A stretch of DNA of 56,690 bases from Candidatus Thalassarchaeum sp. (GCA_030748335.1 JASMMD010000003.1:1-56690); one strand, 5' to 3'; positions 12,334 to 34,398 are shown, counted from the stretch's first letter. Notes: generated by a model from the letters alone, not told the origin. Translations and numbers: made by a program.

Positions 12334-12341
12334 GGGCCGCT

Positions 12342-21409: not shown

Positions 21410-21484
21410 ACGAGTGTAGTGTAGTGGTTATCACCGGGCGTTGCCAACGCCTGAACCCGGGTTCAAATCCCGGCACTCGTACCA
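21410..21484 (+). tRNA. tRNA-Gly(GCC), CCA encoded
   Basis: Hand-folded cloverleaf. Acceptor ACGAGTG/CACTCGT; D arm GTGT-AGTGGTTA-TCAC; anticodon arm GGGCG-TTGCCAA-CGCCT; 4-nt variable loop; T arm CCGGG-TTCAAAT-CCCGG; discriminator A then CCA. Has an unusual A1:U72 pair. Confidence 0.88.
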
Positions 21485-21564
21485 ATCTGCTGCGTCCCCC
21501 CCCTCCTTCATGCCATGGAGATGGCTTCGACAGATTCAATATGTGAGGCCCGTGACTACGCTCC

Positions 21565-21909
21565 ATGAAGGAATTCAGAATCAACATGAGTGACGAACCC
21601 GGCTCCCTAGCAGAGCACTGCGAGGCCATAGCTTCCGGAGACGTGAACATACTGGCCATCGTTGCCATAGCGGGCGACTCCGCATCTGCCGCGATACTTA
21701 CTGACAACGCAGATGCCACCATCTCAGCGCTAGATAGGATGGGTGCCGATTACTCGGTGTCCGAACTCAAGTCGGCCAAGATGGAGCACAAGCCCGGCTC
21801 ATTGGCCGCCTTCACGAGGGGAATGGCAAACTCGGGAGTGAATCTCAGATCGCTGTACGTCATGTCGATGGACGGCGAAAGCGCAACTATCGGTTACACT
21901 ACCGAGTGA
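21565..21909 (+). CDS. ACT-domain protein (two ACT-like halves)
   Basis: FRINMSDEPGSLAEHCEAIASGDVNILAI and MEHKPGSLAAFTRGMANSGVNLRSLYV both fit the ACT beta-alpha-beta start pattern. The gene lies between the two tRNA-Gly genes. Confidence 0.6.
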   Translation: MKEFRINMSDEPGSLAEHCEAIASGDVNILAIVAIAGDSASAAILTDNADATISALDRMGADYSVSELKSAKMEHKPGSLAAFTRGMANSGVNLRSLYVMSMDGESATIGYTTE

Positions 21910-21914
21910 TACGA

Positions 21915-21989
21915 GCGGACATGGTCTAGTGGTTATGACAGCAGGTTCCCAACCTGCTAACCCGGGTTCAACTCCCGGTGTCCGCACCA
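21915..21989 (+). tRNA. tRNA-Gly(CCC), CCA encoded
   Basis: Acceptor GCGGACA/TGTCCGC; D arm GTCT-AGTGGTTA-TGAC; anticodon arm GCAGG-TTCCCAA-CCTGC; T arm CCGGG-TTCAACT-CCCGG; discriminator A then CCA. Confidence 0.9.
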
Positions 21990-22046
21990 ATCGCTCGAAG
22001 ACCAATCAGCAACGCTAATCCGCAAATCGGAATTCGCACGGCCACA

Positions 22047-22124
22047 GGGCCCGTGGGTTAGCTTGGCCTATACTTGGCGCTTCGGGGGCGTTAGACCCCA
22101 GTTCAAATCTGGGCGGGCCCACCA
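22047..22124 (+). tRNA. tRNA-Pro(CGG), CCA encoded
   Basis: Acceptor GGGCCCG/CGGGCCC; D arm GGTT-AGCTTGGCCTA-TACT; anticodon arm GGCGC-TTCGGGG-GCGTT (G37 as expected for Pro); T arm CCCAG-TTCAAAT-CTGGG; discriminator A then CCA. Confidence 0.85.
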
Positions 22125-23907: not shown

Positions 23908-25050
23908 TCAGTCGCCCTTCCACTCGCGGTACTGTATCCACTCTTCCTTCATGTACTCGTTGATCAGCTTCTCCTCGTCCTCCTCAGTGGGTAGGACGGC
24001 CGAGAGGTACTCATCCCAAGCAACATCATCGCCCTCGAAGTCCTCGCCATGTACTGTGTAGCGCTTACCGGCGTACTTGCCGATTCCGCGCTTGAACTTG
24101 TCAGATGGGATGTAGAGCTCCGGCTCGCCCTCCTTGCGGACCTTGCTGATTCTGCGCATCTCGTCGCGCAACTCCTGGAAATACAATTCTCTGCTGGCTT
24201 CGTTCAGATGCTCTCTGTCTGCGGGCTCCTGCGCCTCTCGTTCGTCGTATCTGCCCTTGACTCCGTAGACATATGCCCACTGTGCACTAGTAGAGTCGTC
24301 CGTACCGAACAGATCCAGGCCTGTACTAACCCACTTGTTGAGGTACTTCTGAAGCAACGCGCAGGGGATTACGCCCTGTTTCACTATCCGTCGCAGGCCA
24401 TTGGCTCCAGTTCCGAGATGGAAAGACTCCTCTTTGAGCATCGGACCCATGCTAGCGGCTAGTGGCTTGAAAGACGAGGTGCTAAGCATCTTGAGTTGAT
24501 ATTTGCCATCACGGTCGATGAAGTGGGTGAAGCAGAAGAAGTCAAGCCAGTGGTCGATTGGTGCGTTGAAAGAGCCCAGAATCCTAGTGCCCTCCTGAGC
24601 GTTCCTCTCGAGTAGCTTGGCTGCCTCGCGCATACCCTGCTCACCAAAGAATGTGCAAAGAAGATAGGCCATCTGCCAGCCGTGCCGCTGCTCTTCACAC
24701 ATGATTCGCAGAGCCGATTTACGGTCGTACTCGGTCGGCGCCGAGGCCAGCAGATGATTCTGTTGCTCAACTGATGCGAACTCTGTGTCGCCTTGGACAC
24801 TCACCATGTTGATGATGGCGTCTCGAATGGTCTGCTGGGGGATTTGCATCCTACGATTCCACTTCGGTTTGCCTTCGAAGTCGCCGAACTCGATTTGGTT
24901 ACCAGCAGTGTCCCAGTCGAACTTGATGTCGAAGCGGTAGTCACCGAGCCACGAAGGATCGAAGCCTATTCTGGTCTGCCACTCATTGAAGTCGTCAATC
25001 CATCCCTCAAAGTTCTGAGTGTAGTCAGCGACCACTTCAGTATCCGCCAT
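23908..25050 (-). CDS. Diiron-carboxylate oxygenase resembling benzoyl-CoA 2,3-epoxidase subunit B (BoxB) / PaaA superfamily
   Basis: Two ExxH motifs (CEEQRHGWQMAYLL and LKEESFHLGTG). Blocks VQGDTEFASVEQQNHL and FTHFIDRDGKYQLKML match my recollection of BoxB-family conserved blocks. Start set to MADTEV (ATG at 25050). Confidence 0.65.
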   Translation of the reverse strand: MADTEVVADYTQNFEGWIDDFNEWQTRIGFDPSWLGDYRFDIKFDWDTAGNQIEFGDFEGKPKWNRRMQIPQQTIRDAIINMVSVQGDTEFASVEQQNHLLASAPTEYDRKSALRIMCEEQRHGWQMAYLLCTFFGEQGMREAAKLLERNAQEGTRILGSFNAPIDHWLDFFCFTHFIDRDGKYQLKMLSTSSFKPLAASMGPMLKEESFHLGTGANGLRRIVKQGVIPCALLQKYLNKWVSTGLDLFGTDDSTSAQWAYVYGVKGRYDEREAQEPADREHLNEASRELYFQELRDEMRRISKVRKEGEPELYIPSDKFKRGIGKYAGKRYTVHGEDFEGDDVAWDEYLSAVLPTEEDEEKLINEYMKEEWIQYREWKGD

Positions 25051-25099
25051 AATCTCCCGACTCCCTTTTCGCTTTTGAAGTAATATCCGAACGTACAAA

Positions 25100-25753
25100 T
25101 CAATCCTTGGGGCTCTTTCTCCGGACCGAGTCGGAGAATTCTTCGATTATCCTGTGCTCGATGAGTTGAATCATCTCGCAGAGTGTCGATTTGGAGACGT
25201 CTACCTTACTTGCCAAATTAGTCAAGGTAATCCTCCTCGGAGTGTCGTAGTACCCGTGCCTCACTGCGAGATCGAAGACTTCTCTCTGTCGCACAGTGAG
25301 CAATCTCGACTCCCCTACCTTCGATAGTGAGTGAATCTTGTGATGCAATCCTAACTTATTCAGCCCCTCCACCAGATTCTTCATGTGCATGTTGTCAGTG
25401 ACGAATTCCCAATCTACCCAGCCGTCCCTGACTTCGAATGGGGTGTGGGGTAGCACCTCAGCCTCGATCAGAGGCCGCAGGAACCCGCCCCCCCCTTTCA
25501 TGATGGTGATGTTGATTTCGACCGAGTCGGCGTGTTCATCGAAGAATAAGACAGCCTCGACCCCTGGGTGTGAAGACAGTTCATCCTTGAACTTCTGCAG
25601 TCCGTACCCGCTGGCCCTCCCTCGAGCCGAGCCACGGCCCTTGGATAGGGCCATGTGCTCTTCTATTCGCAAAATGATATGGTGGTTGGACCTCGAAACA
25701 TCACCGGCCCAGTGACCGTCCGGCAGACGTATCGATATGTACAGATGCTGCAT
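25100..25753 (-). CDS. HTH_10 (Bat/DmsR/NarO-type) transcription regulator
   Basis: C-terminal LTVRQREVFDLAVRHGYYDTPRRITLTNLASKVDVSKSTLCEMIQLIEHRII is the typical haloarchaeal-type HTH_10 domain. Start set to MQHLYISIRLPDGHW (ATG at 25753), which matches the usual N-terminus of this family. Confidence 0.75.
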   Translation of the reverse strand: MQHLYISIRLPDGHWAGDVSRSNHHIILRIEEHMALSKGRGSARGRASGYGLQKFKDELSSHPGVEAVLFFDEHADSVEINITIMKGGGGFLRPLIEAEVLPHTPFEVRDGWVDWEFVTDNMHMKNLVEGLNKLGLHHKIHSLSKVGESRLLTVRQREVFDLAVRHGYYDTPRRITLTNLASKVDVSKSTLCEMIQLIEHRIIEEFSDSVRRKSPKD

Positions 25754-25784
25754 CGCCACCCCTGCTCCTCTCAAGGCTCCTTCT

Positions 25785-26438
25785 TTATTCATCTTCGTCA
25801 CTCACCTCTGTCCTCGCACCACCATGCGGGATGATGTGGACTATGATTAATGAGGCCGCAAGACCGAGCAGGAACGGGGGCATCAAACTGGGCTCCCCCG
25901 CTCCAGGGGAATCGTCACTGGGTGGCCCCTTCATCAATCCGGTGAGCACCGACCACGCGTCGTCGGAATCAGCGGTACCATCTCCATCTACGGTGTTCGC
26001 ATACACGCGGTAACTGATGTCGCGGGCGTATGAGGATGGCGCAGTCCAGATGACAGTCCACGTCCTGTCCATATTGCCCGACTCTGTATGGGTGGCCTCA
26101 CCGTCCACCACATGCACCGCATCGTCGAGTACAGACAGGCTTCCGGCATCCACATGCAGGTTGAATCCCCCCAAGGCGCTGCCGTCCTCACTGACCGAGC
26201 TCAGGGCGGTGATTGAGATCTCGTACTTGACAGAGGCTTCCCACTTCTCTGGGAATCCTGTGACTTCTATGCTCACGCTGTCGCTAGCTATCCCTCCACC
26301 ATGGCACAAGCAGCCGTGCTCCACCGCTTCTCCAGTGATGCCAATGGGATAGGACATTGTGGTGGGGGCCAAGACGGTGAAAATAATGAAGAAAAAGCAT
26401 GCCAGCCATCTAGAGACACAAGGTCCCTTATTTTCCAT
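25785..26438 (-). CDS. Exported, C-terminally anchored protein made of one Reeler-like CxCH domain (paralog of the CoxA N-terminal domain)
   Basis: Signal peptide (WLACFFFIIFTVLAPTT), domain with GCLCHGG..GGFNLHV..ATHTESGN..WTVIWTAPSS..NTVDGDG, Pro-rich linker, TM (FLLGLAASLIIVHII), acidic tail. Clearly alignable to residues ~45-190 of the 26524..28713 ORF. Confidence 0.8.
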   Translation of the reverse strand: MENKGPCVSRWLACFFFIIFTVLAPTTMSYPIGITGEAVEHGCLCHGGGIASDSVSIEVTGFPEKWEASVKYEISITALSSVSEDGSALGGFNLHVDAGSLSVLDDAVHVVDGEATHTESGNMDRTWTVIWTAPSSYARDISYRVYANTVDGDGTADSDDAWSVLTGLMKGPPSDDSPGAGEPSLMPPFLLGLAASLIIVHIIPHGGARTEVSDEDE

Positions 26439-26446
26439 CTAGACCC

Positions 26447-26499
26447 CCGAACATGGGTGGTATACCGAAGTCAATCACACTCGTCCCGAACATGTTCGG
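26447..26499. promoter_or_regulatory. Candidate operator pair upstream of the Reeler-like gene: perfect palindrome CCGAACATGTTCGG (26486-26499) plus half-site CGAACATGGGTGG (26448-26460), flanking TATA-like GGTATACC
   Basis: Read directly. The palindrome core is CGAA-N4-TTCG. The same words recur upstream of coxC and nirK. Confidence 0.45.
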
Positions 26500-26523
26500 T
26501 TCATTCTGTTAGTGTGTCTACCA

Positions 26524-28689
26524 TCACTCAGTCATCTCAGGAAGCACATCGAAGTCGTGCTTAGGAGGTGGGGAGGAGGTGGACCATTCGAAAGTGGTAG
26601 CGTTCCAAGGGTTGTCACCTGCCTCATCGCCTGATTTCATGCTACGGATGAAGTTCCAGAAGAATATCAGCTGGGCTACGAATACCACCAACGAGCCGAT
26701 TGTGGAGAACATCTGCTCGGTTGCCCAGCCAGTGCTTTCTTCGTAGACATAGATCCTGCGGGGCATGTCCCACATCCCGAAGAGTGGGATGAAAGTTAGA
26801 TTGATTCCGAGGAAAGTCAGCCAGAAATGCCACCAACCAAGGGTCTGGTCCAGCATCCGGCCGAACATCTTTGGGTACCAGTAGTAGATTCCGCCGAGAG
26901 TCATAACCGCAACAGAACCTAGGGTGTAGTGGAAGTGAGCCACAAGGTAGTAGGTTCCTCTGAGTTGAACGTCCATCGCTAAGCTGGAGAGGTAAACTCC
27001 GGTAATTCCGCCAATTAGGAAGATACCAATTGCCCCCATAACAAACGCTAGAGGAAGTTTGGTGAAGTCAGGTTTTGATTTGTAGAAAGTACCCAATAAA
27101 CTCAGGTATATTAGCCCGAAAGGCACAGAGATGAGTTCGGTTCCAATACTTTCGATTTTCCTGAAGGTTGGATCTATTCCAGTGAGGAACATGTGATGGG
27201 CCCAGACGAGTACGCTGAGAACAGTTGCCACAGTCAAGGCCCAGAGGATTATTCGCCGGCCATACAGATGCCGTCGTACAAACGTCGGAACAATCTCCAT
27301 TGCCATGCCTAGTCCAGGTAGTAGCACGACGTAGACCTCAGGGTGTCCAAAGAACCAGAAGATGTGTAGCCACCAAGTAGTACCATCAATGGAAGGATCG
27401 AAGAACATCGTACCGAAAACCCGGTCACCGACCAGCATCAACACCGCGCCTAGGAGTGCTGGGAATATCACCAACATCAGAATTACAGTAAATAGCATTG
27501 TCCAAGTGTACATCGGCATTTGCATCAATCCCATACTGGGGATACGGTGTCTGAGAATTGTGACTAGGAAGTTGATGGTCGAAGCAGTAACGGATAGGAT
27601 TAGCAGGACCAGACCCGCTCCAGCGAGAGACACCCCCGCACCAGGAGTGTACTCGATGCTAGTCAATGGCGAGTAGAAGGTCCATCCCACATTCGCAGCA
27701 CCACCAAAGAAGAAGCCCGAGGCTGCAGTCAGTCCGCCTAGCACATAGGCCCAGAACGAGAATGCGTTCAGCCTTGGGAAAGCCATGTCCCTAGCCCCAA
27801 TTTGCAAGGGGACCATGTAGTTCGCGAATGCGAACGCCATCGGAGAGACGGCGAAGAGCACCATTACAGCACCGTGCATGGTGACTGCTTCGTTGAACAA
27901 TCCCCCTGTCATGAAGTCGTTATTCGGCACCACTAGTTGCAGGCGAATAAGTATGGATAGTGCTAGGCCTATCACGGTGAAAATAATCGATGCCCACAGG
28001 TAAAGCAATCCGATGTCCTTGTGGTTAGTCGTGCTCAGCCAGTGGATGAGTTCGGCCTTGCCGAAGTTCTCCTTGCGCCACAACACGATGACGATGTGCA
28101 GTATGATTACCAGCAGCGCGCCTACAATAATCAACCAGGCTGGCTCGTATATGTCGATGAGCGATCCAGAGCCAGCGTTCACTCCCGCGACTTTGAACTC
28201 GAGAATGTTCCAGTGGTCTTCCGAGTTCGCTGTGGAATCACCATTCACCGAGTTCACCAGGAGGACGAACTCAGCGACAACGTTGTCGGAGCTGGGTGTG
28301 ACCCACTCGATTTGCCAAGCACGCTGGTCATTGCCCTCTTCGGTGTGTGTGGCAGAACTTTCCATAATCTGAACCGATTCGTCGACGGCGACCAGACTGC
28401 CTCGGTCGACCTTCAGGTTGAAGCCGCCAAGATTCTCTCCGCCAGCATCAGGCCCGCCAGTGAACGAGATGTCCAAGATATAGGCCTCCCCAGCGACAAA
28501 GGTCTCCGGCAGACCTTCAATTGATGGAATCACGCTTTCATCTGCCACAGAGCTGTGGCAGCTACATCCGTTGTTGATGCTTGCACCGTTAATCCCCGAC
28601 GGCAGAGCGCCTAACTGCGGAGTCAGGGCCAACAACAGCGATAGAGCCAGCAGGGCACCGAGGTAGCGCTTCTGTCGCATTGGGAGCAT
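26524..28689 (-). CDS. coxA: Heme-copper oxidase subunit I (A-type) with an N-terminal exported Reeler-like CxCH domain and one extra TM helix
   Basis: The canonical core starts at HWLSTTNHKDIGLLYLW and includes WFFGHPEVY, WAHHMF and VAHFHY. It is preceded by a signal-like MRQKRYLGALLALSLLLAL, a ~150-aa domain (NGCSCHSS..GGFNLKV..ATHTEEGN..WQIEWVTPSS..NSVNGDS) and TM0 (PAWLIIVGALLVIILHIVIVLW). The start at 28689 overlaps the coxB stop (TGATG). Confidence 0.9.
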   Translation of the reverse strand: MLPMRQKRYLGALLALSLLLALTPQLGALPSGINGASINNGCSCHSSVADESVIPSIEGLPETFVAGEAYILDISFTGGPDAGGENLGGFNLKVDRGSLVAVDESVQIMESSATHTEEGNDQRAWQIEWVTPSSDNVVAEFVLLVNSVNGDSTANSEDHWNILEFKVAGVNAGSGSLIDIYEPAWLIIVGALLVIILHIVIVLWRKENFGKAELIHWLSTTNHKDIGLLYLWASIIFTVIGLALSILIRLQLVVPNNDFMTGGLFNEAVTMHGAVMVLFAVSPMAFAFANYMVPLQIGARDMAFPRLNAFSFWAYVLGGLTAASGFFFGGAANVGWTFYSPLTSIEYTPGAGVSLAGAGLVLLILSVTASTINFLVTILRHRIPSMGLMQMPMYTWTMLFTVILMLVIFPALLGAVLMLVGDRVFGTMFFDPSIDGTTWWLHIFWFFGHPEVYVVLLPGLGMAMEIVPTFVRRHLYGRRIILWALTVATVLSVLVWAHHMFLTGIDPTFRKIESIGTELISVPFGLIYLSLLGTFYKSKPDFTKLPLAFVMGAIGIFLIGGITGVYLSSLAMDVQLRGTYYLVAHFHYTLGSVAVMTLGGIYYWYPKMFGRMLDQTLGWWHFWLTFLGINLTFIPLFGMWDMPRRIYVYEESTGWATEQMFSTIGSLVVFVAQLIFFWNFIRSMKSGDEAGDNPWNATTFEWSTSSPPPKHDFDVLPEMTE

Positions 28690-29423
28690 CAGGCAACACC
28701 TCCAGAATACCACATATCGAAGTCATCCTTCTCCATCACTTCTAACACACCTATCATGATGGTGTGTTCGTCACCACATAATTCGAAACACCTGACTGGG
28801 TATGTTCCAGTCTCCTCAGCCTGAATCCAACCGGTGTTCACACGCCCCGGTATCGCATCCACCTTGATTCGGTGTTCGGGCAGGGCATAGGAGTGGAAGA
28901 CGTCACCACTCGTCACCTCGAAGACGACGGGCACATCCACCGGCACACGCAAAGGCTCTCCTGATGCGCTGGTGTAGGATATTCCATTGGGATACTGGTA
29001 GTCCCAGTAGTACTGATATCCCGTGATTTCGACAGTGAACGAGTCATCGGTAGTGTGCTCTTCGTGCTTCTCAAAGAAATCGATGGAATCGAATGTGACG
29101 TCGGAGAGCACTAATAGGAACAGGGCGATGACAATAGTAATGCCCCACGCGACCCTATTGTCTCCCCTCTCTTCCGGTCTCTGACCGATTCTCATGTCAT
29201 CACCCGATCCGTCAGATTCGGTTGTCAGCAGCCACAGGAAGTAGATGTACACCCCCATGCCTATCACAGTGCCTAGGCCCCAGTAAAGAGTGAACAACTC
29301 GTCATACACCTCAGCATGGGCACCCGTGCCCCCAAGTCCCTGAAACCAGTTGAAGATGGAAGCGAAGGTCAGTGCTAGGATGACGATGCTGGCGGAAATA
29401 ATGCCAAATGTTCTCCTATCCAT
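28689..29423 (-). CDS. coxB: Heme-copper oxidase subunit II (CuA), no cytochrome c domain
   Basis: Two N-terminal TMs. CuA ligands in FHSYALPE...CFELCGDEHTIM. The start at 29423 overlaps the coxC stop (TGATG). Confidence 0.9.
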   Translation of the reverse strand: MDRRTFGIISASIVILALTFASIFNWFQGLGGTGAHAEVYDELFTLYWGLGTVIGMGVYIYFLWLLTTESDGSGDDMRIGQRPEERGDNRVAWGITIVIALFLLVLSDVTFDSIDFFEKHEEHTTDDSFTVEITGYQYYWDYQYPNGISYTSASGEPLRVPVDVPVVFEVTSGDVFHSYALPEHRIKVDAIPGRVNTGWIQAEETGTYPVRCFELCGDEHTIMIGVLEVMEKDDFDMWYSGGVA

Positions 29424-30229
29424 CAAATCACCTCCAGATAGACGACGAGGAAGAGGACGATCCAAACGGCATCGACGAAGTGCCAGTACATCGTGACAGC
29501 GCGGTAACCGTCGTGCCTGTCTGTAGACATGTGCCCGTTACGCATCAGCACTGCTACCACGATGAACACCAGCAGCCCGACCAGGACGTGCAGTCCATGC
29601 AGCCCTGTCAGTGAGAAGAAGGCGGTGCCGTAGGGATGATCGCCCCACAGGAACCCGGCATTGGAGTACTCGTACATCTGGATTGCCAAGAAGGCCAAGC
29701 CCAATGCTATAGCCGCATAGAGCGACTTGCCCGCCTCTTGCAGACGCCCTTCGCTGTGAAAACCGGCTGAGTAGTGCGCGAGCACGCCCGAGGATAGCAG
29801 CAGGACGGTGTTCAGGCCGACCAGAGCTATGTCGTGCTCCACCCCGGTCGCTGGCCATGAGCCCCCCACCGCATTTTCCCAACTCAATGTGTGCCAGCGG
29901 GCCCAGAACCAGTACGCGAAGAACGAGGCGAATATTATGCACTCGGTTATGATAATCCACACCATCGCCCATGAGGCGTCCCCCCAATCCCCTGCCGAGG
30001 ACCGAGTGGGTCGGTAAGGCCAGAGGTCGACTTCTTCTCTCATCCAGTTAGATATCGAGAGCACGAGGAGTGGTATCCCGAGGACAGCGAGGGGCCATAT
30101 CAGCAGTCCACCGAGACACAGCGTCACGGAGAGAGCGAGCATGATTGGAGCGAGACTGGAATGAACTTCTCCCTCTCCGTCTTTCTCAACATACTCAGAC
30201 ACAATGTTCTCTACTTCACTAGCGGACAT
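29423..30229 (-). CDS. coxC: Heme-copper oxidase subunit III
   Basis: Motifs FFSLTGLHGLHVLVGLL and MYWHFVDAVWIVLFLVVY; polytopic. GGTGAGG Shine-Dalgarno-like sequence just upstream of the ATG. Confidence 0.88.
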   Translation of the reverse strand: MSASEVENIVSEYVEKDGEGEVHSSLAPIMLALSVTLCLGGLLIWPLAVLGIPLLVLSISNWMREEVDLWPYRPTRSSAGDWGDASWAMVWIIITECIIFASFFAYWFWARWHTLSWENAVGGSWPATGVEHDIALVGLNTVLLLSSGVLAHYSAGFHSEGRLQEAGKSLYAAIALGLAFLAIQMYEYSNAGFLWGDHPYGTAFFSLTGLHGLHVLVGLLVFIVVAVLMRNGHMSTDRHDGYRAVTMYWHFVDAVWIVLFLVVYLEVI

Positions 30230-30282
30230 GACCTCACCGCTTGTGGCCTAGATACACGGAGCATTACTGAGTCGCCTTACAA

Positions 30283-30318
30283 GTTCGGTGATGCCATTAA
30301 CACCGAACCGGTTCGGTG
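30283..30318. promoter_or_regulatory. Candidate operator upstream of coxC (and of the divergent 30353 gene): perfect 18-bp palindrome CACCGAACCGGTTCGGTG (30301-30318) plus an extra GTTCGGTG copy (30283-30290)
   Basis: Read directly. The core is CGAA-CCGG-TTCG, located 54-90 nt upstream of the coxC ATG. Confidence 0.45.
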
Positions 30319-30352
30319 AGAATAGCAACTCCTTCCTCCCTATCCGCGACCC

Positions 30353-30970
30353 GTGGAGGAACCATCAGGCCAGGAAACGCCCCGCCGACTCCTAATCTTT
30401 CCAGTGCTCTTGGCATTGCTTCTGGCGGTCTCGCCGATTCTTCTGTTCGGAGACGATGCGGACAGCGGGGCGGTCTTGAGAGAGGATCTATCCGAGGCGC
30501 AGTTAGAGACTCTAGCGGGACTCGACTTCGCGAGGACGCCTGCAGATGTGAGGGGAGGTATGACCGCATTGAACCAGGCTTTCCTTCTGGATTCTGGCTC
30601 ACTGATTGTGGCGGGGACGTGGGAAGGTTCACTGGAGCTTGGAAATTGGTCCGATGAGTCCGTTGGCGGTAGGGATCTCTTCGTAGCTGAGTTGACTGCT
30701 GATGGAGATTGGTCCTCAGCCCATTTCGCTGGCTCTTCAGGCGAGGATTCTATCGCGTTACTCTCGATATCAGGAGATAGACTGTCCGTATGGGGTCGGG
30801 TGAACGGCGAAGCACGATTCGCCTCTGAGATTCTTGACCATCACACTGGATGGTCGCCGACAGCCTTCGAGGCACATCTCTACATTGACGAGGGTTGGCA
30901 GAGAGTCTGGCAGATAGACGATGAACTGCTGCCCGTTTCCTCAACCAGCCTGTGGTGCGGCTTCGCGTGA
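30353..30970 (+). CDS. Hypothetical exported protein
   Basis: GTG start, signal/TM (LLIFPVLLALLLAVSPILLF), then an acidic beta-rich region (..LFVAELTADGDW..). No family recognised. Confidence 0.45.
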   Translation: MEEPSGQETPRRLLIFPVLLALLLAVSPILLFGDDADSGAVLREDLSEAQLETLAGLDFARTPADVRGGMTALNQAFLLDSGSLIVAGTWEGSLELGNWSDESVGGRDLFVAELTADGDWSSAHFAGSSGEDSIALLSISGDRLSVWGRVNGEARFASEILDHHTGWSPTAFEAHLYIDEGWQRVWQIDDELLPVSSTSLWCGFA

Positions 30971-30971
30971 T

Positions 30972-31415
30972 TCACATCTGCTCGAAAATCTGTTGCATCC
31001 CAACTATCAGATTCATAGTCTCCTCGAGACAACCCGTCTGAGTCACCCGGCCAATGATTTCGCCGTCCGCGTTTACCACGTATAGCCGACGAATCTCCTC
31101 CATCAACAGCATTTTCAGGACCGAACCTACGGGCAGATCCTCTTCGATAGTCACTAGGGGGTAACTCATGATGTCACTCAATTCCATCTCAGAAGGGTCT
31201 TCACCCGGACGGAAGCATTTTCTGAGCAAGTCTCTCTCTGTCACAACTCCTTCAGGCTGCCCCCTACGGGTCACAATGACAGACCAGACTCCAGCATTAT
31301 GCATGGATTCCATCGCCTCGGTGACTTTCGTACGTTCACTCAGGCAAACCACGTTATTGTCAATCATCTTGCTCATGCTGAATTCGAAATTCATCATCCA
31401 TCCCTTATCATTCAA
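30972..31415 (-). CDS. CBS-domain pair protein
   Basis: Two CBS repeats (VVCLSERTKVTEAMESMHNAGVWSVIVT..GVVTERDLL and PLVTIEEDLPVGSVLKMLLMEEIRRLYVVNADGEIIGRVT). Confidence 0.8.
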   Translation of the reverse strand: MNDKGWMMNFEFSMSKMIDNNVVCLSERTKVTEAMESMHNAGVWSVIVTRRGQPEGVVTERDLLRKCFRPGEDPSEMELSDIMSYPLVTIEEDLPVGSVLKMLLMEEIRRLYVVNADGEIIGRVTQTGCLEETMNLIVGMQQIFEQM

Positions 31416-31445
31416 TTTCCTGCACTACAGAATAGGTTCCCGGCT

Positions 31446-32879
31446 TTACTCGCCGTTTTCGTCATAGACAGTCGTGTCTTCAGCACCAGTGACTTCGATG
31501 ATTCCGATAGCTCCCTTGTGGAAAGCACGGGTCAAAGCGTGGTCAACTAGGATGTAGTTTGCTGGTACTTCGAATGATAGGTCGACAACAACTGCTCCAC
31601 CAGGTGGTACGAGTACAGTTTGTACACTCACCATAGGATCATCACCTACGGCTCCATAATTCCAAACAGTGTCAAAGATTTCTCCGATGACGTGGAAGGA
31701 TGAGATTGTGTTAGGCCCCCCAACTCCGAAGTAAATTCGCATGGTTTCACCAACGTTTGCCTTGATGGTGTTCTCTCCGGTGAATCCGTGGAACTTGCCG
31801 TTGAAGACAACATATGTTGGGTTTTCATCGAACATTGCAACATCGTCGAACTCTTGGTGACCATCCGTTCCAGGCTTCCACTTTGTGTAAATGTCGCCTT
31901 GCATGATGTAAATCTCTTTGTCAACTGTCGGGAGAGGAGTCTCCGGCTCGATGAGAATCATTCCATACATTCCCTTGCTGATGTGAGTTGGCACGTCAGG
32001 TGTGGCACAGTGGTAGACGAATAGTCCAGCGTGTTGTGCAAGGAAGGAGAAGGAAGTAGTCTCTCCAGGTGCGGTTCCGGTAGCTGCTGCCCCGCCTCCT
32101 TGCCCAGTAACTGCGTGAAAGTCGACGTTGTGGTTCATTGTGCTCTCAGCGTTATTGCTGAAGTGAACGACCACAGTGTCCCCAACACGTGCTCGGAACA
32201 TTGGACCAGGAACTGTACCATTATATGTCCAGTAGGCGAAAGTTGTACCATCTTCAATCTCTGCAGTCACTTCGACAGCTTCCATGTAAATATGAACAGT
32301 TTCAGCTATATCACGGTCGATCGGTGCTGGCATCAAGAAAGGATTGCGGGAAATATCGTCAGTATCTACAGCGAGTGCAGCACCAATTTCCTCAACAATT
32401 GCTCCGGTGTTACCACCTTCGCCGACAATGAATGCGCCTTCCATGCCGCCGGAACGGTGGCCTGGAATTGTACAGTAGTAAGCGAATGTCCCTTCATCGT
32501 CTGCGATGAAAGTAAAGGAATCTTGGCTTCCTTCAGCATTCAATTGCTCAGTAGCGATGTTGTATCCTTCGATTTCAATATCGTGGATATTGATTTCTCC
32601 CATGGTTAGTGTTATGGTGACTTGGTCACCAACATCAACAGCAAGATCAGGATTTACTAATCCGTCAATATCGCCACCGACACCAATAAATTGCATCATT
32701 TCGGCACGCAGTGTGTAGGAAACTTCGTCGAATGTAACAACTGGTACACACTCATCTCCAACTAGTCCTGTGCCATCACCGCACACAATATCAGGGCCTC
32801 CTCCAACACACCCCGCAATCGAAGTAACTATCAACAGCAATGCCAAGGAAGTCGCTCCAGTTTTCTTCATTCCATTCAT
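31446..32879 (-). CDS. nirK: Copper-containing nitrite reductase NirK with an N-terminal fused cupredoxin domain; lipobox-like signal
   Basis: LLLIVTSIAGC lipobox-like signal. Extra type-1 Cu domain (NIHDIEI..YYCTIPGHRSGGM). NirK core: HNVDFHAVTG, VYHCATPDVPTHISKGMYGMILIEP, SFHVIGEIFD, LVDHALTRAFHKGAIG. Start set to MNGMKK (ATG at 32879); the ORF track TTG is at 32930. Confidence 0.8.
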   Translation of the reverse strand: MNGMKKTGATSLALLLIVTSIAGCVGGGPDIVCGDGTGLVGDECVPVVTFDEVSYTLRAEMMQFIGVGGDIDGLVNPDLAVDVGDQVTITLTMGEINIHDIEIEGYNIATEQLNAEGSQDSFTFIADDEGTFAYYCTIPGHRSGGMEGAFIVGEGGNTGAIVEEIGAALAVDTDDISRNPFLMPAPIDRDIAETVHIYMEAVEVTAEIEDGTTFAYWTYNGTVPGPMFRARVGDTVVVHFSNNAESTMNHNVDFHAVTGQGGGAAATGTAPGETTSFSFLAQHAGLFVYHCATPDVPTHISKGMYGMILIEPETPLPTVDKEIYIMQGDIYTKWKPGTDGHQEFDDVAMFDENPTYVVFNGKFHGFTGENTIKANVGETMRIYFGVGGPNTISSFHVIGEIFDTVWNYGAVGDDPMVSVQTVLVPPGGAVVVDLSFEVPANYILVDHALTRAFHKGAIGIIEVTGAEDTTVYDENGE

Positions 32880-32967
32880 TTTCACTATCTTATTTTTCAA
32901 GGTCTTCTCCTCCGCGGGTTTTGCCCACAATGGGTAGGGGAATGAAACCTAACTTACAACATAGTCA

Positions 32968-33026
32968 CGAACATGGGAGGTGTTTGAAATCACACCTAGT
33001 GCCTGTTCGGAGATGTTCGGAACAGG
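32968..33026. promoter_or_regulatory. Candidate operator cluster upstream of nirK: CGAACATGGGAGGT (32968-32981), hairpin AGGTGT-N8-ACACCT (32978-32997), and inverted repeat CCTGTTC-N11-GAACAGG (33002-33026) containing a tandem GTTCGGA x2
   Basis: Read directly. CGAACATGGG(A/T)GGT is shared with 26448-26461, and CCGAACAT (complement of 33013-33020) is shared with the 26486 palindrome. Confidence 0.4.
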
Positions 33027-33056
33027 AGTTAGGGCAGACTCCGGAATTCCAATCCT

Positions 33057-33491
33057 GTGGCATTTGATTTACACACCTTGAGATTGGCAGGCGGAGAGGC
33101 AGCTGCACAGTGGGCAATGGAGCAGGAGAACTGGGTTATCATCGGTATCGACCACGAGGAGGACCACCTTAGTCTGAGATTAGTCAGAGAGTTGCAGAAA
33201 CTCGGTAAATCGGTACATCTGGTTTGTCCTAGATGTGCTAGGGATGGAATCAAGCTGCTCGGTCTGCCAGTTTACGAGTTCATCGAGGACATAGACGAGC
33301 AGGTGGATGTCATCAGCCTGCATGGAGACGTGGATCAGTGGACATTAGCCCCTCATATCTCACAGAGAATGCAGTGGTACGGAGACATCAAGGTGATTTG
33401 GCCTCCCGAGAATTTAGTCGACGATAGGTGGGTGTCCGAGATGTACGATTACGGAATTGCAGTTGCCTACAACTGTCGGCTGCCCATATAG
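33057..33491 (+). CDS. CoA-binding-domain protein (YccU/COG1832-like)
   Basis: NWVIIGIDHEEDHLSLRLVRELQKLGKSVHLV..GLPVYEFIEDIDEQVDVISL fits the small Rossmann-like CoA-binding fold pattern. An alternative ATG start lies at 33117. Confidence 0.45.
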   Translation: MAFDLHTLRLAGGEAAAQWAMEQENWVIIGIDHEEDHLSLRLVRELQKLGKSVHLVCPRCARDGIKLLGLPVYEFIEDIDEQVDVISLHGDVDQWTLAPHISQRMQWYGDIKVIWPPENLVDDRWVSEMYDYGIAVAYNCRLPI

Positions 33492-33507
33492 AGGCCGATT
33501 CGGATTC

Positions 33508-34398
33508 TCAATTCCCATCGAACTCTGGTACTTCTCGCTTGACGTAGGCGGCTATGCCCTTCTTGGCATCACCGCTTTGGAAGAGGTCTGACTGCAACTC
33601 CCTCTCGAGAGCGAGATGGTACTCAAGAGGTATTTCCATGCCGCTCTGGACACTGCGCTTGATGTTCCCAATTGCCTTGCTGGCAGCATAGGGTAGGGTG
33701 AACTGGCCAGCGTAGTCTAGGATGTCCTGGCGAAACTCGTCGAGGCTACCGGCCCAGACGTCATGAACTAGATCCATTTCCTTAGCTTCCTCATACGAGA
33801 ACTTACGTCCAGTGACCATAATCTCCATTGCCTTCGCTTTACCGACCAGACGAGACAGTCTGGCGGTTCCGCCGGTACCCGCGAGGACGCCTAGGGAGAC
33901 CTCGGGCAGACCGACCTGTCCAGAGTCCTTGCGACCGATTCGAATGTCGGCCGCCATGGCAATTTCGAGGCCGCCTCCGACGGCGTGACCGTTGAGGGCG
34001 GCGATAACGAGCTTGGGGGTCTGCTCAAGCCTGCTCAGGGTCTCGTTGGCGTGAAGGCAGAAGAAATACTTGAATCCAGGACTGACAGAATCAAGCATAC
34101 TGATGCTGGCTCCTGCTGAGAAGAACTTCTCGCCGTGCCCTGTCAGCATGATTACCGTCACATCATCGTCGAAGCGAGCCTTCAGTACGGCCTCGTCGAT
34201 GTCCCGCATCATCGCGTGGGTGTAGGTGTTCACCGGGGTCTTTCCCTCGGTCAATGGGTCACCGGCCGAATCTGAGCACAGCTCGATGACGGCTATTCCG
34301 TTGTCCGTCACGCCGTAGTTCACGAGGTTGTTCGGCATTGGCTGCATATCTGGCCAAGAGGTCATGCCTGCGCCAATGAGGGACTCCATATCAACCAA
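33508..34398 (-). CDS. Enoyl-CoA hydratase/isomerase family protein
   Basis: Motifs FFSAGASISML, LNGHAVGGGLEIAMAADIRIG, GLPEVSLGVLAGTGGTARL. Confidence 0.8.
   Translation of the reverse strand: MVDMESLIGAGMTSWPDMQPMPNNLVNYGVTDNGIAVIELCSDSAGDPLTEGKTPVNTYTHAMMRDIDEAVLKARFDDDVTVIMLTGHGEKFFSAGASISMLDSVSPGFKYFFCLHANETLSRLEQTPKLVIAALNGHAVGGGLEIAMAADIRIGRKDSGQVGLPEVSLGVLAGTGGTARLSRLVGKAKAMEIMVTGRKFSYEEAKEMDLVHDVWAGSLDEFRQDILDYAGQFTLPYAASKAIGNIKRSVQSGMEIPLEYHLALERELQSDLFQSGDAKKGIAAYVKREVPEFDGN

What the first reader, a model, noticed from the sequence alone, without database searches (positions are those of the whole stretch)
25785..30229. Terminal oxidase operon in which subunit I is fused to an exported Reeler-like CxCH domain, with a free-standing anchored paralog downstream
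Seen in the sequence:
- coxC-coxB-coxA are translationally coupled through TGATG junctions at 29421-29425 and 28687-28691.
- The coxA ORF opens with a signal-like peptide, a ~150-aa beta-rich domain and one extra TM helix before the canonical subunit I start (HWLSTTNHKDIGLLYLW).
- The next gene (25785..26438) consists of a signal peptide, the same domain, a Pro-rich linker and a C-terminal TM anchor.
- Conserved blocks occur in the same order in both copies: G-C-x-C-H, GGFNL, ATHTE-x-G, W-x-x-x-W-x-x-P-S-S, N-x-V-x-G-D.

Inference:
- The extra TM makes the topology consistent. The domain sits outside and the CoxA N-terminus inside, so both copies lie on the outer face where CuA of CoxB accepts electrons.
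- The operon has no cytochrome c gene and no CxxCH motif.
- The block order resembles the Reeler domain (C..P.H / F.GF / .tH. / W.aP), which in animal FRRS1 sits with DOMON and cytochrome b561 redox modules.
- The domain could therefore be an electron-entry, metal-delivery or quinol/O2-related accessory module.
- I do not know of a characterised heme-copper oxidase subunit I with such a fusion.
Basis: partly seen in the sequence, partly recalled or inferred. Interest (0 to 1): 0.78.

Follow-up and report, generated by a model that had tools for sequence, protein, structure and literature searches.

The report
Reeler-like exodomain on archaeal respiratory oxidase
In Marine Group II archaea the core subunit of the oxygen-reducing respiratory enzyme carries an extra outward-facing domain related to the animal Reeler domain, with a near-invariant Cys-x-Cys-His motif. 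Free membrane-anchored copies of the same domain sit next to the oxidase and nitrate-reductase genes, which points to an undescribed accessory part of respiration in very abundant ocean microbes.

Summary
The minus-strand operon is coxC-coxB-coxA-paralog. CoxA reads: signal peptide, ~140-aa beta-sandwich, extra TM helix, then a canonical A-type subunit I.

- **Domain identity.** It matches NCBIfam NF041895 ("choice-of-anchor V", no function assigned). Its AlphaFold model hits the F-spondin Reeler domain first. 21 of 147 family representatives also match Pfam Reeler.
- **Conservation.** The fusion occurs across Poseidoniales, in two divergent oxidase operon types, both found in one MAG.
- **Origin.** The nearest unfused relative encodes the domain as a separate gene overlapping the coxA stop.
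- **Second complex.** A distinct clade of free copies sits directly upstream of narGHJI.
- **Other fusions.** Rare relatives are fused to a plastocyanin-like domain or to a b561-like 4-His membrane module.
- **Conserved site.** Cys44 and His45 are kept in 146/146 sequences, Cys42 in 144/146 and His115 in 141/146.
- **What it is not.** It is not Sco, PCuAC, Cox11, DOMON or a canonical cytochrome c.

The function is unproven. My best guess (0.35) is a cofactor-bearing subunit on the outer face that relays or docks electrons in a chain lacking cytochrome c. The rivals are copper delivery and a non-redox scaffold.

The parts
29423..30229 (-). coxC, heme-copper oxidase subunit III
   Evidence: Pfam COX3, E = 7e-38. 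Its stop overlaps the coxB ATG in TGATG at 29425-29421.
28689..29423 (-). coxB, subunit II with a complete CuA ligand set (H...CFELCGDEHTIM) and the YYWDY electron-entry Trp
   Evidence: Pfam COX2. NCBIfam TIGR02866 CoxB scores 152.6 bits against a cut-off of 147.7. Sequence.
26524..28689 (-). coxA fusion gene (721 aa from the ATG at 28689): signal peptide + Reeler-like domain + TM0 + A-type subunit I
   Evidence: A 98%-identical full-length homologue is P0186.
28606..28689 (-). Sec-type signal peptide of CoxA (aa 1-28, MLPMRQKRYLGALLALSLLLALTPQLGA)
   Evidence: Hydrophobic 19-mers start at aa 9-12. AlphaFold helix spans aa 4-27. There is no twin-arginine motif.
28180..28605 (-). Reeler-like domain (RLD; NCBIfam choice-of-anchor V), fused copy, aa 29-170
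   Evidence: NF041895 scores 81 bits against a cut-off of 42. AlphaFold pLDDT 89.4, pTM 0.84. Foldseek top hits are the F-spondin Reeler domain.
28555..28566 (-). C42-S-C44-H45 motif on the N-terminal arm of the fused RLD
   Evidence: C44 and H45 are kept in 146/146 and C42 in 144/146 family representatives.
28345..28347 (-). His115 (ATHTE block), fourth member of the conserved Cys2His2 set
   Evidence: Kept in 141/146 sequences (3 Gln, 2 Phe). Invariant in alignments A1 and A3.
28063..28140 (-). Extra transmembrane helix TM0 (aa 184-209), running from outside to inside
   Evidence: AlphaFold helix spans aa 184-209. It aligns with the paralog's C-terminal anchor. There is a weak GG_III-CTERM hit. 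The unfused relatives' ORFs leave only about 24 residues (L047) or about 43 residues (L046) upstream of the aligned COX1 core, too few for an RLD-plus-TM0 segment.
26527..28041 (-). Canonical A-type COX1 core (aa 217-721; GHPEVY motif present)
   Evidence: Pfam COX1, 416.9 bits. TIGR02891 aligns over aa 217-718.
25785..26438 (-). Free-standing RLD paralog: signal peptide, RLD (C43-L-C45-H46 at 26301-26312), Pro-rich linker, C-terminal TM anchor (25821-25883)
   Evidence: NF041895 scores 69.2 bits. HMM E = 7e-71. The same position is occupied in L017-L019, L021, L022, L034, L048, L050, L052, L053, L055 and L059.
26439..26523 (-). 85-nt coxA-paralog spacer with the perfect palindrome CGAACATGTTCG (26487-26498) and a second CATGTTCGGG copy
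   Evidence: There is a single occurrence in the window. Its role was not tested.
31446..32930 (-). Context: copper nitrite reductase NirK with an N-terminal cupredoxin extension
   Evidence: TIGR02376 scores 349.4 bits against a cut-off of 296.3. Pfam Copper-bind plus Cu-oxidase_3/2. Syntenic with type-1 cox operons.
30353..30970 (+). Context: conserved 205-aa membrane or secreted protein of unknown family, transcribed divergently from coxC
   Evidence: No Pfam or NCBIfam hit. A homologue holds the same position at most type-1 loci that extend upstream of coxC.
25100..25801 (-). Context: HTH_10 regulator immediately downstream of the paralog
   Evidence: Pfam HTH_10. The RLD-HTH_10-PaaA order is conserved.

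Best explanation
**Shown.**
- The window comes from a Poseidoniales (Marine Group II, Thalassarchaeaceae-like) chromosome.
- Its A-type, CuA-containing oxidase has a subunit I preceded by a Sec signal peptide, a Reeler-like beta-sandwich (RLD) and one extra TM helix. The RLD therefore sits on the outer face, tethered next to subunit I.
- The fusion is ancient and order-wide, and it is present in both oxidase operon types.
- It arose from a free, C-terminally anchored RLD gene that sat next to coxA.
- Related free RLDs are the first gene of narGHJI operons.

**Inferred.**
- The RLD is a permanent accessory subunit of the terminal respiratory enzymes, not a transient factor.
- Its near-invariant Cys42-x-Cys44-His45 arm and His115, together with the Gly-rich loops, form one pocket at the pole of the sandwich away from the membrane. 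That pocket holds a redox-active cofactor, either heme iron or copper.
- With this cofactor the RLD acts as a built-in relay or docking site on the outer face. It connects membrane heme subunits (CoxA/CoxB-CuA, NarI) to the cupredoxin-based carrier pool of a lineage that has cytochrome b and Rieske protein but no cytochrome c1 or c.

The identity of the cofactor and the direction of electron flow are not established.
For: - **Anatomy and topology:**
- **Family and fold:** NF041895 above its cut-off. F-spondin Reeler is the top Foldseek hit for two independent models. Pfam Reeler matches 21/147 relatives.
- **Permanence of the fusion:** about 60 full-length fused clusters at 38-98% identity. 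At least 20 of 29 GTDB species loci and at least 48 of 64 metagenome loci are fused, in two operon types. Both types occur in MAG UBA623 (L017, L028).
- **Origin:** the unfused relative L047 has coxA-RLD with a 4-nt overlap. TM0 aligns with the paralog's anchor.
- **Link to a second complex:** RLD lies 12-19 nt upstream of narG in L011 and L014, and directly upstream of narG in all other nar loci. That is 5 nar loci among L011-L045 plus 10 of the 64 metagenome loci, and they form their own clade. NarG has no Tat signal, so only NarI is exposed outside. The nar genes were acquired horizontally (PMC6461757), which implies the RLD was added as a host-specific adaptor.
- **Redox partners elsewhere:** RLD+CARDB+plastocyanin (P0036), and RLD+Ig repeats+DUF4079 with four His-bearing TM helices and sub-threshold b561 hits (P0111). 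This parallels animal Reeler-DOMON-b561 proteins (PMC10691727).
- **Site conservation:** C44/H45 100% > C42 98.6% (Ala variants) > H115 96.6%, with some CxxCH variants. This is the ranking expected for a heme-c-like (C/A)XnCH site with a distal His. The A4 profile weakly aligns this arm to the heme motif of class I cytochromes c (E 0.3-0.5).
- **Lineage context:** MGII lack cytochrome c1 (PMC6336850). The RLD-free relative L046 has Sco and cytochrome c genes in its cox cluster, whereas no Poseidoniales locus examined does.
Against: - No cofactor has been demonstrated.
- CxCH is not an established natural heme-c motif. It is listed only as a search pattern in one pipeline (PMC11218250).
- No Ccm/Ccs-like WWD protein was found in about 1.5 Mb of held Poseidoniales DNA. 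Cytochromes c are generally absent from this part of the Archaea (PMC4429474).
- The cytochrome c alignments are not statistically significant.
- AlphaFold places the CxCH arm with only moderate or low confidence, and I could not measure residue distances.
- NarGHI needs no external redox partner in the textbook mechanism.
- CoxB has an intact CuA entry site that cupredoxins could use directly.
- Many family members are tips of Ig/fn3/PKD stalk proteins that look like adhesins.
- The plastocyanin and DUF4079 fusions are single clusters.
Confidence: 0.35

Rival explanations
1. **Copper capture or insertion module.** The Cys-x-Cys-His arm and His115 bind Cu(I)/Cu(II) outside the cell and hand it to CuA or CuB of the oxidase and to NirK and small cupredoxins. 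This would make the RLD a functional analogue of Sco, PCuAC, Cox11 or PmoD in a copper-dependent lineage without cytochrome c that lives in copper-poor seawater.
For: - The type-1 cox locus is full of copper genes: CuA/CuB oxidase, NirK with a cupredoxin extension, and small cupredoxin-like ORFs.
- CopD sits exactly where the free paralog sits in L005/L020/L054, and upstream in L018.
- The RLD-free relative L046 has Sco in front of coxB. No Sco homologue lies within 10 kb of any Poseidoniales cox operon examined.
- One relative is fused to a plastocyanin-like domain.
- CXC motifs in Ig-like copper chaperones (Cox11 CFCF, CCS CXC) are a precedent (own knowledge, not checked here).
- The architecture of signal peptide, beta-sandwich and C-terminal anchor is typical of such factors.
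Against: - A chaperone would not need to stay covalently fused 1:1 to subunit I in both oxidase types across a whole order.
- A dedicated RLD clade belongs to narGHJI, which contains no copper.
- There is no conserved Met.
- C42 can be Ala while C44-H45 never varies.
- There is no HMM or fold similarity to any known copper chaperone.
- The conserved surface (nine near-invariant Gly, the NxVNG loop, Asp158) is larger than a single metal ion needs.
Confidence: 0.25
2. **Cofactor-free scaffold or docking domain.** Like animal Reeler domains that bind heparin or microbial glycans, the RLD binds a cell-envelope component (S-layer or glycan) or a protein partner such as halocyanin, and so positions or stabilises respiratory complexes. 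The Cys/His residues would be structural (disulfide or zinc).
For: - The fold and family are those of an adhesion-type domain.
- Most multi-domain relatives are stalks of Ig, fn3, PKD, CARDB or TSP3 repeats with the RLD at the tip and variable C-terminal anchors. That variability is the basis of the 'choice-of-anchor' name.
- Some free RLDs lie in surface or glycosylation neighbourhoods (L012).
- The idea explains attachment to unrelated complexes (Cox, Nar) without a shared chemistry.
- The Reeler domain of CYBDOM proteins is described as an adhesion module of unknown function (PMC10691727).
Against: - Near-absolute conservation of a Cys-His dipeptide plus a second Cys and His, in a family whose mean column identity is otherwise low, is unusual for a purely structural role.
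- F-spondin, the adhesion paradigm, lacks these residues in the aligned region.
- In the two scans seeded on the cox and nar subfamilies, at least 88% of the loci recovered (82 of 93) are fused to or adjacent to respiratory genes.
Confidence: 0.22
3. **Protection against nitrosative or oxidative stress, or a sensing module.** A metal site on the outer face binds or detoxifies NO, nitrite-derived species or superoxide produced around Nar, NirK and the oxidase.
For: - NirK lies next to type-1 cox operons.
- A second RLD is followed by a 4-nt-overlapping ScdA/hemerythrin (RIC) gene beside nar in L029; the same gene order is seen in L074 and L076. RIC also lies near cox in L047 and L051.
- Hemerythrin lies near nar in L011.
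Against: - The evidence is purely contextual.
- Type-2 cox operons carry the fusion with no such neighbours.
- There is no similarity to known NO-binding proteins.
Confidence: 0.08
4. **Assembly or annotation artefact.** The fusion would be a chimeric contig or a frameshift joining an upstream gene to coxA.
For: None found. The only weak point is that the source appears to be a metagenome-assembled genome.
Against: - The same reading frame, from signal peptide through TM0 into COX1, is found in about 60 protein clusters and more than 70 independent contigs from NCBI, JGI, ENA, Tara and Logan. Identities range from 38% to 98%.
Confidence: 0.01

Closest known systems
NCBIfam NF041895, choice-of-anchor V domain-containing protein
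   Same: Both window copies score above the curated cut-off (81 and 69 bits against 42). The layout of signal peptide, domain and variable C-terminal anchor is the same. PGF-CTERM and GG_III-like anchors are seen in relatives.
   Different: The model is a domain-level label with no function. Neither the N-terminal fusion to COX1 nor the nar linkage is part of its description as far as these tools show. The fused proteins are named only 'cbb3-type cytochrome c oxidase subunit I' or 'cytochrome ubiquinol oxidase subunit I'.
Reeler domain (Pfam PF02014; F-spondin structures 2ZOT, 2ZOU, 3COO) and animal Reeler-DOMON-cytochrome b561 proteins (FRRS1/SDR2, CG8399)
   Same: It is the best structural match (TM 0.50-0.58). 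It is also the top-ranked though weak PDB sequence match (E 0.05-0.09). 21 of 147 relatives hit the Pfam model. The domain sits at the extracellular N-terminal tip. One prokaryotic relative (P0111) joins it to a b561-like 4-His module, echoing FRRS1.
   Different: The window copies themselves do not reach the Pfam model. Identity to F-spondin is 16-18%. F-spondin lacks the CxCH/His set in the aligned region. There is no DOMON domain here, and the partner is a heme-copper oxidase or NarGHJI rather than b561.
caa3-type oxidases with cytochrome c fused to subunit II, and Thermus NarC encoded first in narCGHJIK (own knowledge, not checked here)
   Same: Both are membrane-tethered modules on the outer face, hard-wired to or co-encoded with a terminal reductase. 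The gene position, first in a nar operon, matches.
   Different: Those modules are canonical CxxCH cytochromes c matured by Ccm/Ccs and are attached to subunit II. Here the module is a Reeler-like beta-sandwich with CxCH, attached to the N-terminus of subunit I, in a lineage with no detected cytochrome c machinery.
Extracytoplasmic copper chaperones of oxidases: Sco (PF02630), PCuAC, Cox11/CtaG, PmoD (own knowledge for their properties)
   Same: They are membrane-anchored domains on the outer face with conserved Cys/His, encoded beside copper enzyme genes. Sco occupies the cox cluster of the RLD-free relative L046.
   Different: There is no HMM match and no fold match in the top 50. The RLD is permanently fused and is also linked to the copper-free Nar.
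Quinol oxidase subunit I (CyoB/QoxB) with an extra N-terminal helix TM0
   Same: There is an extra helix before TM1 that places the N-terminus outside. The CyoB and QoxB models extend their alignment over it (aa 179/191 onward).
   Different: Here TM0 aligns with the C-terminal anchor of free RLD proteins and carries an exported domain. Subunit II keeps all CuA ligands, so the enzyme is not a quinol oxidase of the bo3 type.
Rieske box II motif C-x-C-H-G
   Same: The local motif is identical (PMC4122944).
   Different: There is no box I (C-x-H-x-G-C) and no Rieske fold. The signal peptides are mostly Sec-type, which fits poorly with an exported Fe-S cluster.

Membership tests
NCBIfam NF041895 choice-of-anchor V | HMM score above the curated cut-off (42 bits) | tested here: met
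   81.0 bits (CoxA aa 20-164) and 69.2 bits (paralog aa 21-163). 77.5 bits on full-length CoxA.
NCBIfam NF041895 choice-of-anchor V | The same domain occurs with alternative C-terminal anchors | tested here: met
   PGF-CTERM in P0007 and P0021 and in 2 of 147 representatives. Plain TM anchors. A weak GG_III-CTERM hit. Fusion to COX1.
Reeler domain (Pfam PF02014) | Pfam HMM match at or above the gathering score (21 bits) | tested here: not met
   Neither window copy matches, even at E <= 10. Relatives do: P0068 scores 25.3 bits, and 21/147 match at E <= 0.01 with a best of 3e-7. Membership is therefore at superfamily level, through intermediates.
Reeler domain (Pfam PF02014) | Reeler beta-sandwich fold | tested here: met
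The top 7 Foldseek PDB hits are F-spondin Reeler chains (E 3e-6 to 4e-5, TM 0.50-0.58) for a model with pLDDT 89.4.
Reeler domain (Pfam PF02014) | Glycan, heparin or matrix binding | not testable with these tools
   Requires biochemistry.
A-type heme-copper oxidase, subunits I/II/III | COX1, COX2 and COX3 HMMs, CuA ligands in subunit II, GHPEVY in subunit I | tested here: met
   PF00115 416.9 bits, PF00116 68.7 bits, PF00510 131.3 bits. TIGR02866 is above its cut-off. TIGR02891 scores 555.9 bits, below the equivalog cut-off of 670.75. Motifs were read.
Cox copper chaperones (Sco, PCuAC, Cox11/CtaG) | HMM or fold similarity to the family | tested here: not met
   No Pfam hit at E <= 10. None appears among the top 50 Foldseek PDB hits.
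Cox copper chaperones (Sco, PCuAC, Cox11/CtaG) | Copper binding and transfer to CuA or CuB | not testable with these tools
   Only context is available: NirK, CopD and cupredoxins nearby, and no Sco within 10 kb.
c-type cytochrome | CxxCH heme attachment motif | tested here: not met
   The motif is CxCH in 154/167 family proteins, and at least 3 have CxxCH at the same site. There is no CxxCH in the operon.
c-type cytochrome | Cytochrome c maturation genes (Ccm/Ccs) in the organism | tested here: inconclusive
   No WWD-motif ORF in about 1.5 Mb of held loci. These are fragments around cox and nar, not whole genomes. The literature survey places cytochromes c outside this group (PMC4429474).
DOMON / EB_dh heme-b domains | HMM or fold similarity | tested here: not met
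   No Pfam hit. No such structure in the Foldseek top 50.
Rieske [2Fe-2S] protein | Box I CxHxGC together with box II CxCH | tested here: not met
   Only the CxCH element is present. A regex for both boxes found nothing in any held locus.

The most novel reading that the evidence does not exclude
The RLD is a previously unrecognised class of redox domain. It would be a Reeler-fold beta-sandwich carrying a heme (thioether- or Cys/His-ligated at the (C/A)-x(1-2)-C-H arm, with His115 as the distal ligand) or a novel Cys2His2 copper centre. It would stand in for cytochrome c1/c as the hard-wired electron port of both oxidases and of Nar in Poseidoniales, a lineage without cytochrome c. It would also reveal the ancestral, redox-linked role of the Reeler domain that survives in animal Reeler-DOMON-b561 ferric reductases.
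Probability: 0.2. Interest if true: 0.9.

Novelty: new variant of a known kind. Interest (0 to 1): 0.68.

Why it matters
- **Abundance.** Poseidoniales are among the most abundant archaea in the surface ocean and remain uncultured.
- **An open question in their respiration.** Their chain has a cytochrome b/Rieske complex without cytochrome c1 (PMC6336850). How electrons reach the CuA oxidase is unknown.
- **A concrete candidate.** An order-wide, hard-wired outer-face domain with a near-invariant Cys2His2 set sits on both oxidases, and a dedicated paralog sits on the horizontally acquired nitrate reductase. This domain can be expressed and tested for the missing component, whether that is a relay, a docking site or a copper feeder.
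- **A clue to the Reeler domain.** The finding gives the first functional context for a large curated but function-less prokaryotic family (more than 3500 clusters at 50% identity). It links that family to the animal Reeler domain, whose role in b561 ferric reductases is also unknown.
- **Annotation.** Current labels such as 'cbb3-type cytochrome c oxidase subunit I' hide the feature.

Tried and rejected
- **Pfam on the two domain copies at E <= 10:** nothing. Reeler homology had to be shown through relatives and fold.
- **PDB sequence search with the narrow profile A1:** only noise, namely antibody chains and the COX1 start.
- **The search for related loci with A1:** failed for lack of a conserved stretch. 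It worked with the tighter alignment A2.
- **Neighbourhoods of the plastocyanin fusion (P0036), the DUF4079 fusion (P0111) and the CxxCH variant (P0153):** housekeeping genes only, uninformative.
- **Cluster look-ups for taxonomy of multi-domain relatives:** no names returned. The spread of the family beyond Poseidoniales and Thermoplasmatota is therefore undetermined.
- **Rieske-type cluster:** rejected, because there is no box I and the signal peptides are Sec-type.
- **TM0 as a CyoB-like quinol-site helix:** rejected in favour of descent from the RLD anchor.
- **Literature searches:** terms covered choice-of-anchor, Reeler+heme, Reeler+DOMON+b561, MGII+oxidase+halocyanin, Poseidoniales+heme-copper oxidase, DUF4079 and CXCH. 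No description of this fusion was found.
- **PDB search with the DUF4079 module:** only spurious GPCR hits.
- **Palindrome in the coxA-paralog spacer:** no other copy in the window.
- **Not possible with these tools:** I could not inspect model coordinates, so the proximity of C42, C44, H45 and H115 is inferred from strand order, not measured.

Full report
**1. Observation**

The minus strand between 25785 and 30229 carries four consecutive ORFs.
- Pfam assigns them to COX3 (29423-30229), COX2 (28689-29465 as listed) and COX1 (26524-28713 as listed). The last ORF (25785-26438) gets no family.
- Reading the DNA shows that the coxC stop and the coxB ATG share TGATG at 29425-29421. The coxB stop and the coxA ATG share TGATG at 28691-28687. 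Each start is preceded by GGAGGTG.
- The true products are therefore CoxB of 244 aa and CoxA of 721 aa.
- The COX1 match begins only at about residue 217-233. Ahead of it lie:
  - a hydrophobic signal peptide (aa 1-28, no twin arginine);
  - a beta-rich segment;
  - a second hydrophobic helix (aa 184-209) followed by WRKENFGK.
- This gives the orientation signal peptide in, domain out, TM0 out-to-in, then the normal cytoplasmic start of COX1.
- The downstream ORF has a signal peptide, the same domain, a Pro/Gly/Asp-rich linker and a C-terminal TM anchor.
- The two copies are 35% identical (E = 2e-36). The alignment continues into TM0 and the anchor.
- There is no CxxCH in the operon or in any long ORF of the window.
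- One correction: the paralog is separated from coxA by an 85-nt spacer rather than being coupled.

**2. What the domain is**

- Pfam gives nothing, even at E <= 10.
- NCBIfam NF041895, "choice-of-anchor V domain", matches both copies well above its cut-off: 81 and 69 bits against 42.
- AlphaFold2 gives a nine-strand beta-sandwich:
  - with a 20-sequence alignment, pLDDT is 82.7;
  - for the domain alone with 55 sequences, pLDDT is 89.4 and pTM 0.84.
- For both models the best PDB fold matches are the F-spondin Reeler domain structures 2ZOT, 2ZOU and 3COO (E about 3e-6, TM 0.50-0.58). Generic Ig-like folds follow.
- No Sco, PCuAC, Cox11, CopC, cupredoxin or DOMON structure appears in the top 50.
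- An exhaustive profile search finds 3556 cluster representatives (1065 at E <= 1e-10). Most are about 200-230 aa, consisting of signal peptide, domain and anchor.
- Of 147 representatives scanned, 21 match Pfam Reeler (best E = 3e-7; P0068 scores 25.3 bits against a gathering score of 21).
- A profile of these 147 ranks Spondin-1 first among all PDB sequences, though weakly (E 0.05-0.09).

I call the domain RLD (Reeler-like domain).

**3. The fusion is genuine and old**

- Domain-only searches returned fragments that run from the RLD through a TM helix into "EWLTSTDHKKIGTLYF", the start of COX1.
- A full-length search gives about 60 clusters (at 90% identity) that cover 97-100% of the query. 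They fall into two groups:
  - 64-98% identity and about 720 aa, from both Thalassarchaeaceae and Poseidoniaceae;
  - 38-40% identity and about 773 aa, including Thalassarchaeum betae.
- One cluster member alone is seen on 116 contigs.
- Gene maps and my HMM/phmmer scan of 29 GTDB species-representative loci and 64 metagenome loci show two operon types:
  - type 1 is coxC-coxB-[RLD-coxA], as in the window;
  - type 2 is coxB-[RLD-coxA]-coxC(-coxD).
- At least 20 of 29 GTDB loci and at least 48 of 64 metagenome loci carry a fused coxA.
- MAG UBA623 has a type-1 locus whose RLD is 98% identical to the window's (L017). It also has a type-2 locus (L028). One genome therefore keeps the RLD on both oxidases.
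- Public annotation calls these proteins "cbb3-type cytochrome c oxidase subunit I" or "cytochrome ubiquinol oxidase subunit I".
- I found no paper that mentions the fusion.

**4. Origin**

- The closest unfused COX1 (P0226, 62% identical to the core, 511 aa, little room for a TM0) sits in coxC-coxB-coxA. A 205-aa anchored RLD gene overlaps the coxA stop by 4 nt (E = 3e-58).
- A more distant unfused relative (P0233, 53%) has no RLD. Its cluster is the textbook set Sco-coxB-coxA-coxC-coxD-ctaA-ctaB plus cytochrome c genes.
- No Sco, CtaA or CtaB homologue lies within 10 kb of any Poseidoniales cox operon examined.
- TM0 aligns with the paralog's anchor and gives a weak GG_III-CTERM hit.
- The simplest history is that a free, anchored RLD gene already attached to the cox operon was duplicated, and one copy fused to the 5' end of coxA.
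- The free copy persists downstream of type-1 coxA in the window and in L017-L019, L021, L022, L034, L048, L050, L052, L053, L055, L059, L087 and L088.
- In L005/L020/L054 a CopD gene occupies that position instead.
- A rough NJ tree mixes some downstream copies with fused type-1 domains. This suggests repeated duplication or conversion.

**5. A second respiratory complex**

- Free RLDs P0013 and P0006 (56% identical to each other) lie 19 and 12 nt upstream of narG in narGHJI-narK operons.
- The same arrangement recurs in L029, L033 and L041 (GTDB) and in ten metagenome loci. These RLDs form their own clade.
- NarG starts with the usual cytoplasmic FS0 motif and has no Tat signal. Only NarI faces the outside, where the RLD sits.
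- Rinke et al. infer that the Poseidoniales nar genes came from Proteobacteria by horizontal transfer (PMC6461757).
- The RLD therefore looks like a lineage-specific part bolted onto an imported enzyme.
- In the two scans together, 82 of 93 loci (at least 88%) have the RLD fused to or adjacent to cox or nar genes. The search pattern was derived from these subfamilies, so this is not an unbiased estimate.

**6. Other architectures**

- Among the top 150 representatives, most long proteins carry the RLD at the N-terminal tip of Ig, fn3, PKD, CARDB or TSP3 stalks.
- Two are redox-flavoured:
  - P0036 is RLD + CARDB repeats + a plastocyanin-type domain with Cys/His/Met ligands + an anchor;
  - P0111 is RLD + Ig repeats + a DUF4079 module of four TM helices, each with a His. 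This module also gives sub-threshold hits to prokaryotic and eukaryotic cytochrome b561 models.
- The second echoes animal Reeler-DOMON-b561 proteins, whose Reeler domain has no known function (PMC10691727).
- Both are single clusters with uninformative neighbours.

**7. The conserved site**

- Across 147 representatives, C44 and H45 are kept in 146/146 aligned sequences, C42 in 144/146 (two Ala) and H115 in 141/146 (Gln or Phe).
- G89, G97, W125, W129, D158, F90 and the N-x-V-N-G loop are also nearly invariant, although overall column identity is low.
- At least three proteins have CxxCH at the same place.
- From the strand order in the model, the following all lie at the same pole of the sandwich:
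  - the N-terminal arm;
  - the FTGGP and GGF loops;
  - His115-Gly119-Asn120;
  - the NSVNG loop;
  - Asp158.
- The linker to TM0 leaves from the opposite pole. This is an inference. I could not read coordinates, and the arm itself has only moderate confidence (pLDDT about 71).
- Three cofactor readings were considered.
  - **Heme-c-like.** The ranking CH > first Cys > distal His is the one seen in c-type cytochromes. The profile weakly aligns the arm to the CxxCH region of class I cytochromes c (E 0.3-0.5, not significant). One pipeline lists CXCH as a heme motif (PMC11218250). Against this, no Ccm/Ccs-like ORF was seen in about 1.5 Mb of held DNA, and cytochromes c are not reported for this lineage (PMC4429474).
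  - **Copper.** The CXC-His arrangement and the copper-rich neighbourhood fit: NirK at 31446-32930 (TIGR02376, 349 bits against 296), small cupredoxin-like ORFs and CopD.
  - **Rieske-like.** CxCHG is also Rieske box II (PMC4122944), but box I is absent and the signal peptides are Sec-type.

**8. Mechanism**

- A factor needed only during assembly would not have to stay covalently attached to both oxidases throughout an order, nor be added to an imported Nar. I therefore favour a role in the mature enzymes.
- MGII have cytochrome b and Rieske protein but no cytochrome c1 (PMC6336850). They transcribe halocyanin and plastocyanin genes highly (PMC9723583).
- CoxB keeps an intact CuA entry site.
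- My best-supported reading (0.35) is that the RLD is a cofactor-bearing relay or docking port on the outer face. It would link membrane heme subunits with the cupredoxin pool.
- The rivals are copper capture or insertion (0.25), a cofactor-free scaffold or adhesion domain (0.22), a nitrosative or oxidative protection module (0.08) and an artefact (0.01).
- None of these can be settled without biochemistry. The decisive experiments are listed separately.

**9. Verdict**

- The finding is real.
- The domain family is catalogued but has no assigned function.
- Its fusion to subunit I, its order-wide conservation on two oxidases, its split state in the nearest relative and its recruitment to nar operons are, as far as I could find, undescribed.
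- I rate it a new variant of a known kind, a heme-copper oxidase with a novel built-in exodomain, with interest 0.68. There is a 0.2 chance that it represents a new class of redox domain.

Noticed in passing
window 31446-32930 (-): This is a copper-containing nitrite reductase (NirK; TIGR02376, 349 bits against a cut-off of 296) with an N-terminal plastocyanin-like extension. It is syntenic with type-1 cox operons in many Poseidoniales loci, although the group is usually described as an obligate aerobic heterotroph.
   Followed up: partly
window 30353-30970 (+): A 205-aa protein with an N-terminal hydrophobic segment and no Pfam or NCBIfam family is transcribed divergently from coxC. A homologue holds the same position at most type-1 cox loci that extend upstream of coxC, including Poseidonia. 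It is a possible further oxidase accessory factor.
   Followed up: partly
window 24001-34000: G+C drops to 0.51-0.55 across the PaaA/HTH_10/RLD/cox/NirK block, against about 0.58-0.62 in the flanks. This may reflect membrane-protein composition or a different history of the block.
   Followed up: no
window 26439-26523: The 85-nt coxA-paralog spacer holds a perfect palindrome CGAACATGTTCG (26487-26498) and a second CATGTTCGGG copy (26446-26455). It is unique in the window and could be an operator, for example for the adjacent HTH_10 regulator, or a hairpin.
   Followed up: partly
L005/L020/L054 about 12170-12700 (-); L018 4213-4719: A short CopD-family membrane protein (162-170 aa) occupies the slot of the free RLD paralog in the Guaymas MAG and lies upstream of the cox block in another MAG. 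This suggests some interchange between a copper-handling gene and the RLD at this locus.
   Followed up: partly
L029 9941-11349; L074, L076: Beside narGHJI, a second, divergently transcribed RLD gene is followed by an ScdA_N+hemerythrin (RIC, repair of iron centres) gene; in L029 the two genes overlap by 4 nt. RIC also lies near cox/NirK in L047 and L051.
   Followed up: partly
L028 (MAG UBA623) and 15 other GTDB loci: A second oxidase operon type, coxB-[RLD-coxA]-coxC-coxD, encodes a CoxA only 38-40% identical to the window's. The same MAG carries the type-1 operon. The physiological division of labour between the two oxidases is unknown.
   Followed up: partly
P0111 (L004 1864-4260): This protein combines RLD, about five Ig-like repeats and a DUF4079 four-helix module with one His per helix. 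The module gives sub-threshold cytochrome b561 hits. It is a prokaryotic counterpart of the animal Reeler-DOMON-b561 layout and a single metagenomic cluster.
   Followed up: partly
L023, L026/L063, L035: Another free RLD subgroup is followed by a GpsA-like glycerol-3-phosphate dehydrogenase gene. In L023 and L026/L063 an FTR1-family iron permease gene lies on the opposite strand beyond it.
   Followed up: no
L047 10848-11288: A 146-aa ORF with a COX1 Pfam hit (a subunit I fragment) lies between the cox operon and NirK in the unfused relative.
   Followed up: no
L012 7877-9244; L111: RLD genes occur in tandem. In L012 two anchored copies lie next to large TSP3-repeat and glycosylation genes. 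In L111 two long RLD proteins of 572 and 675 aa lie side by side. These RLDs have no respiratory neighbours.
   Followed up: no
window 21410-22124: A cluster of three tRNA genes (Gly-GCC, Gly-CCC, Pro-CGG) lies about 3.7 kb downstream of the cox block.
   Followed up: no
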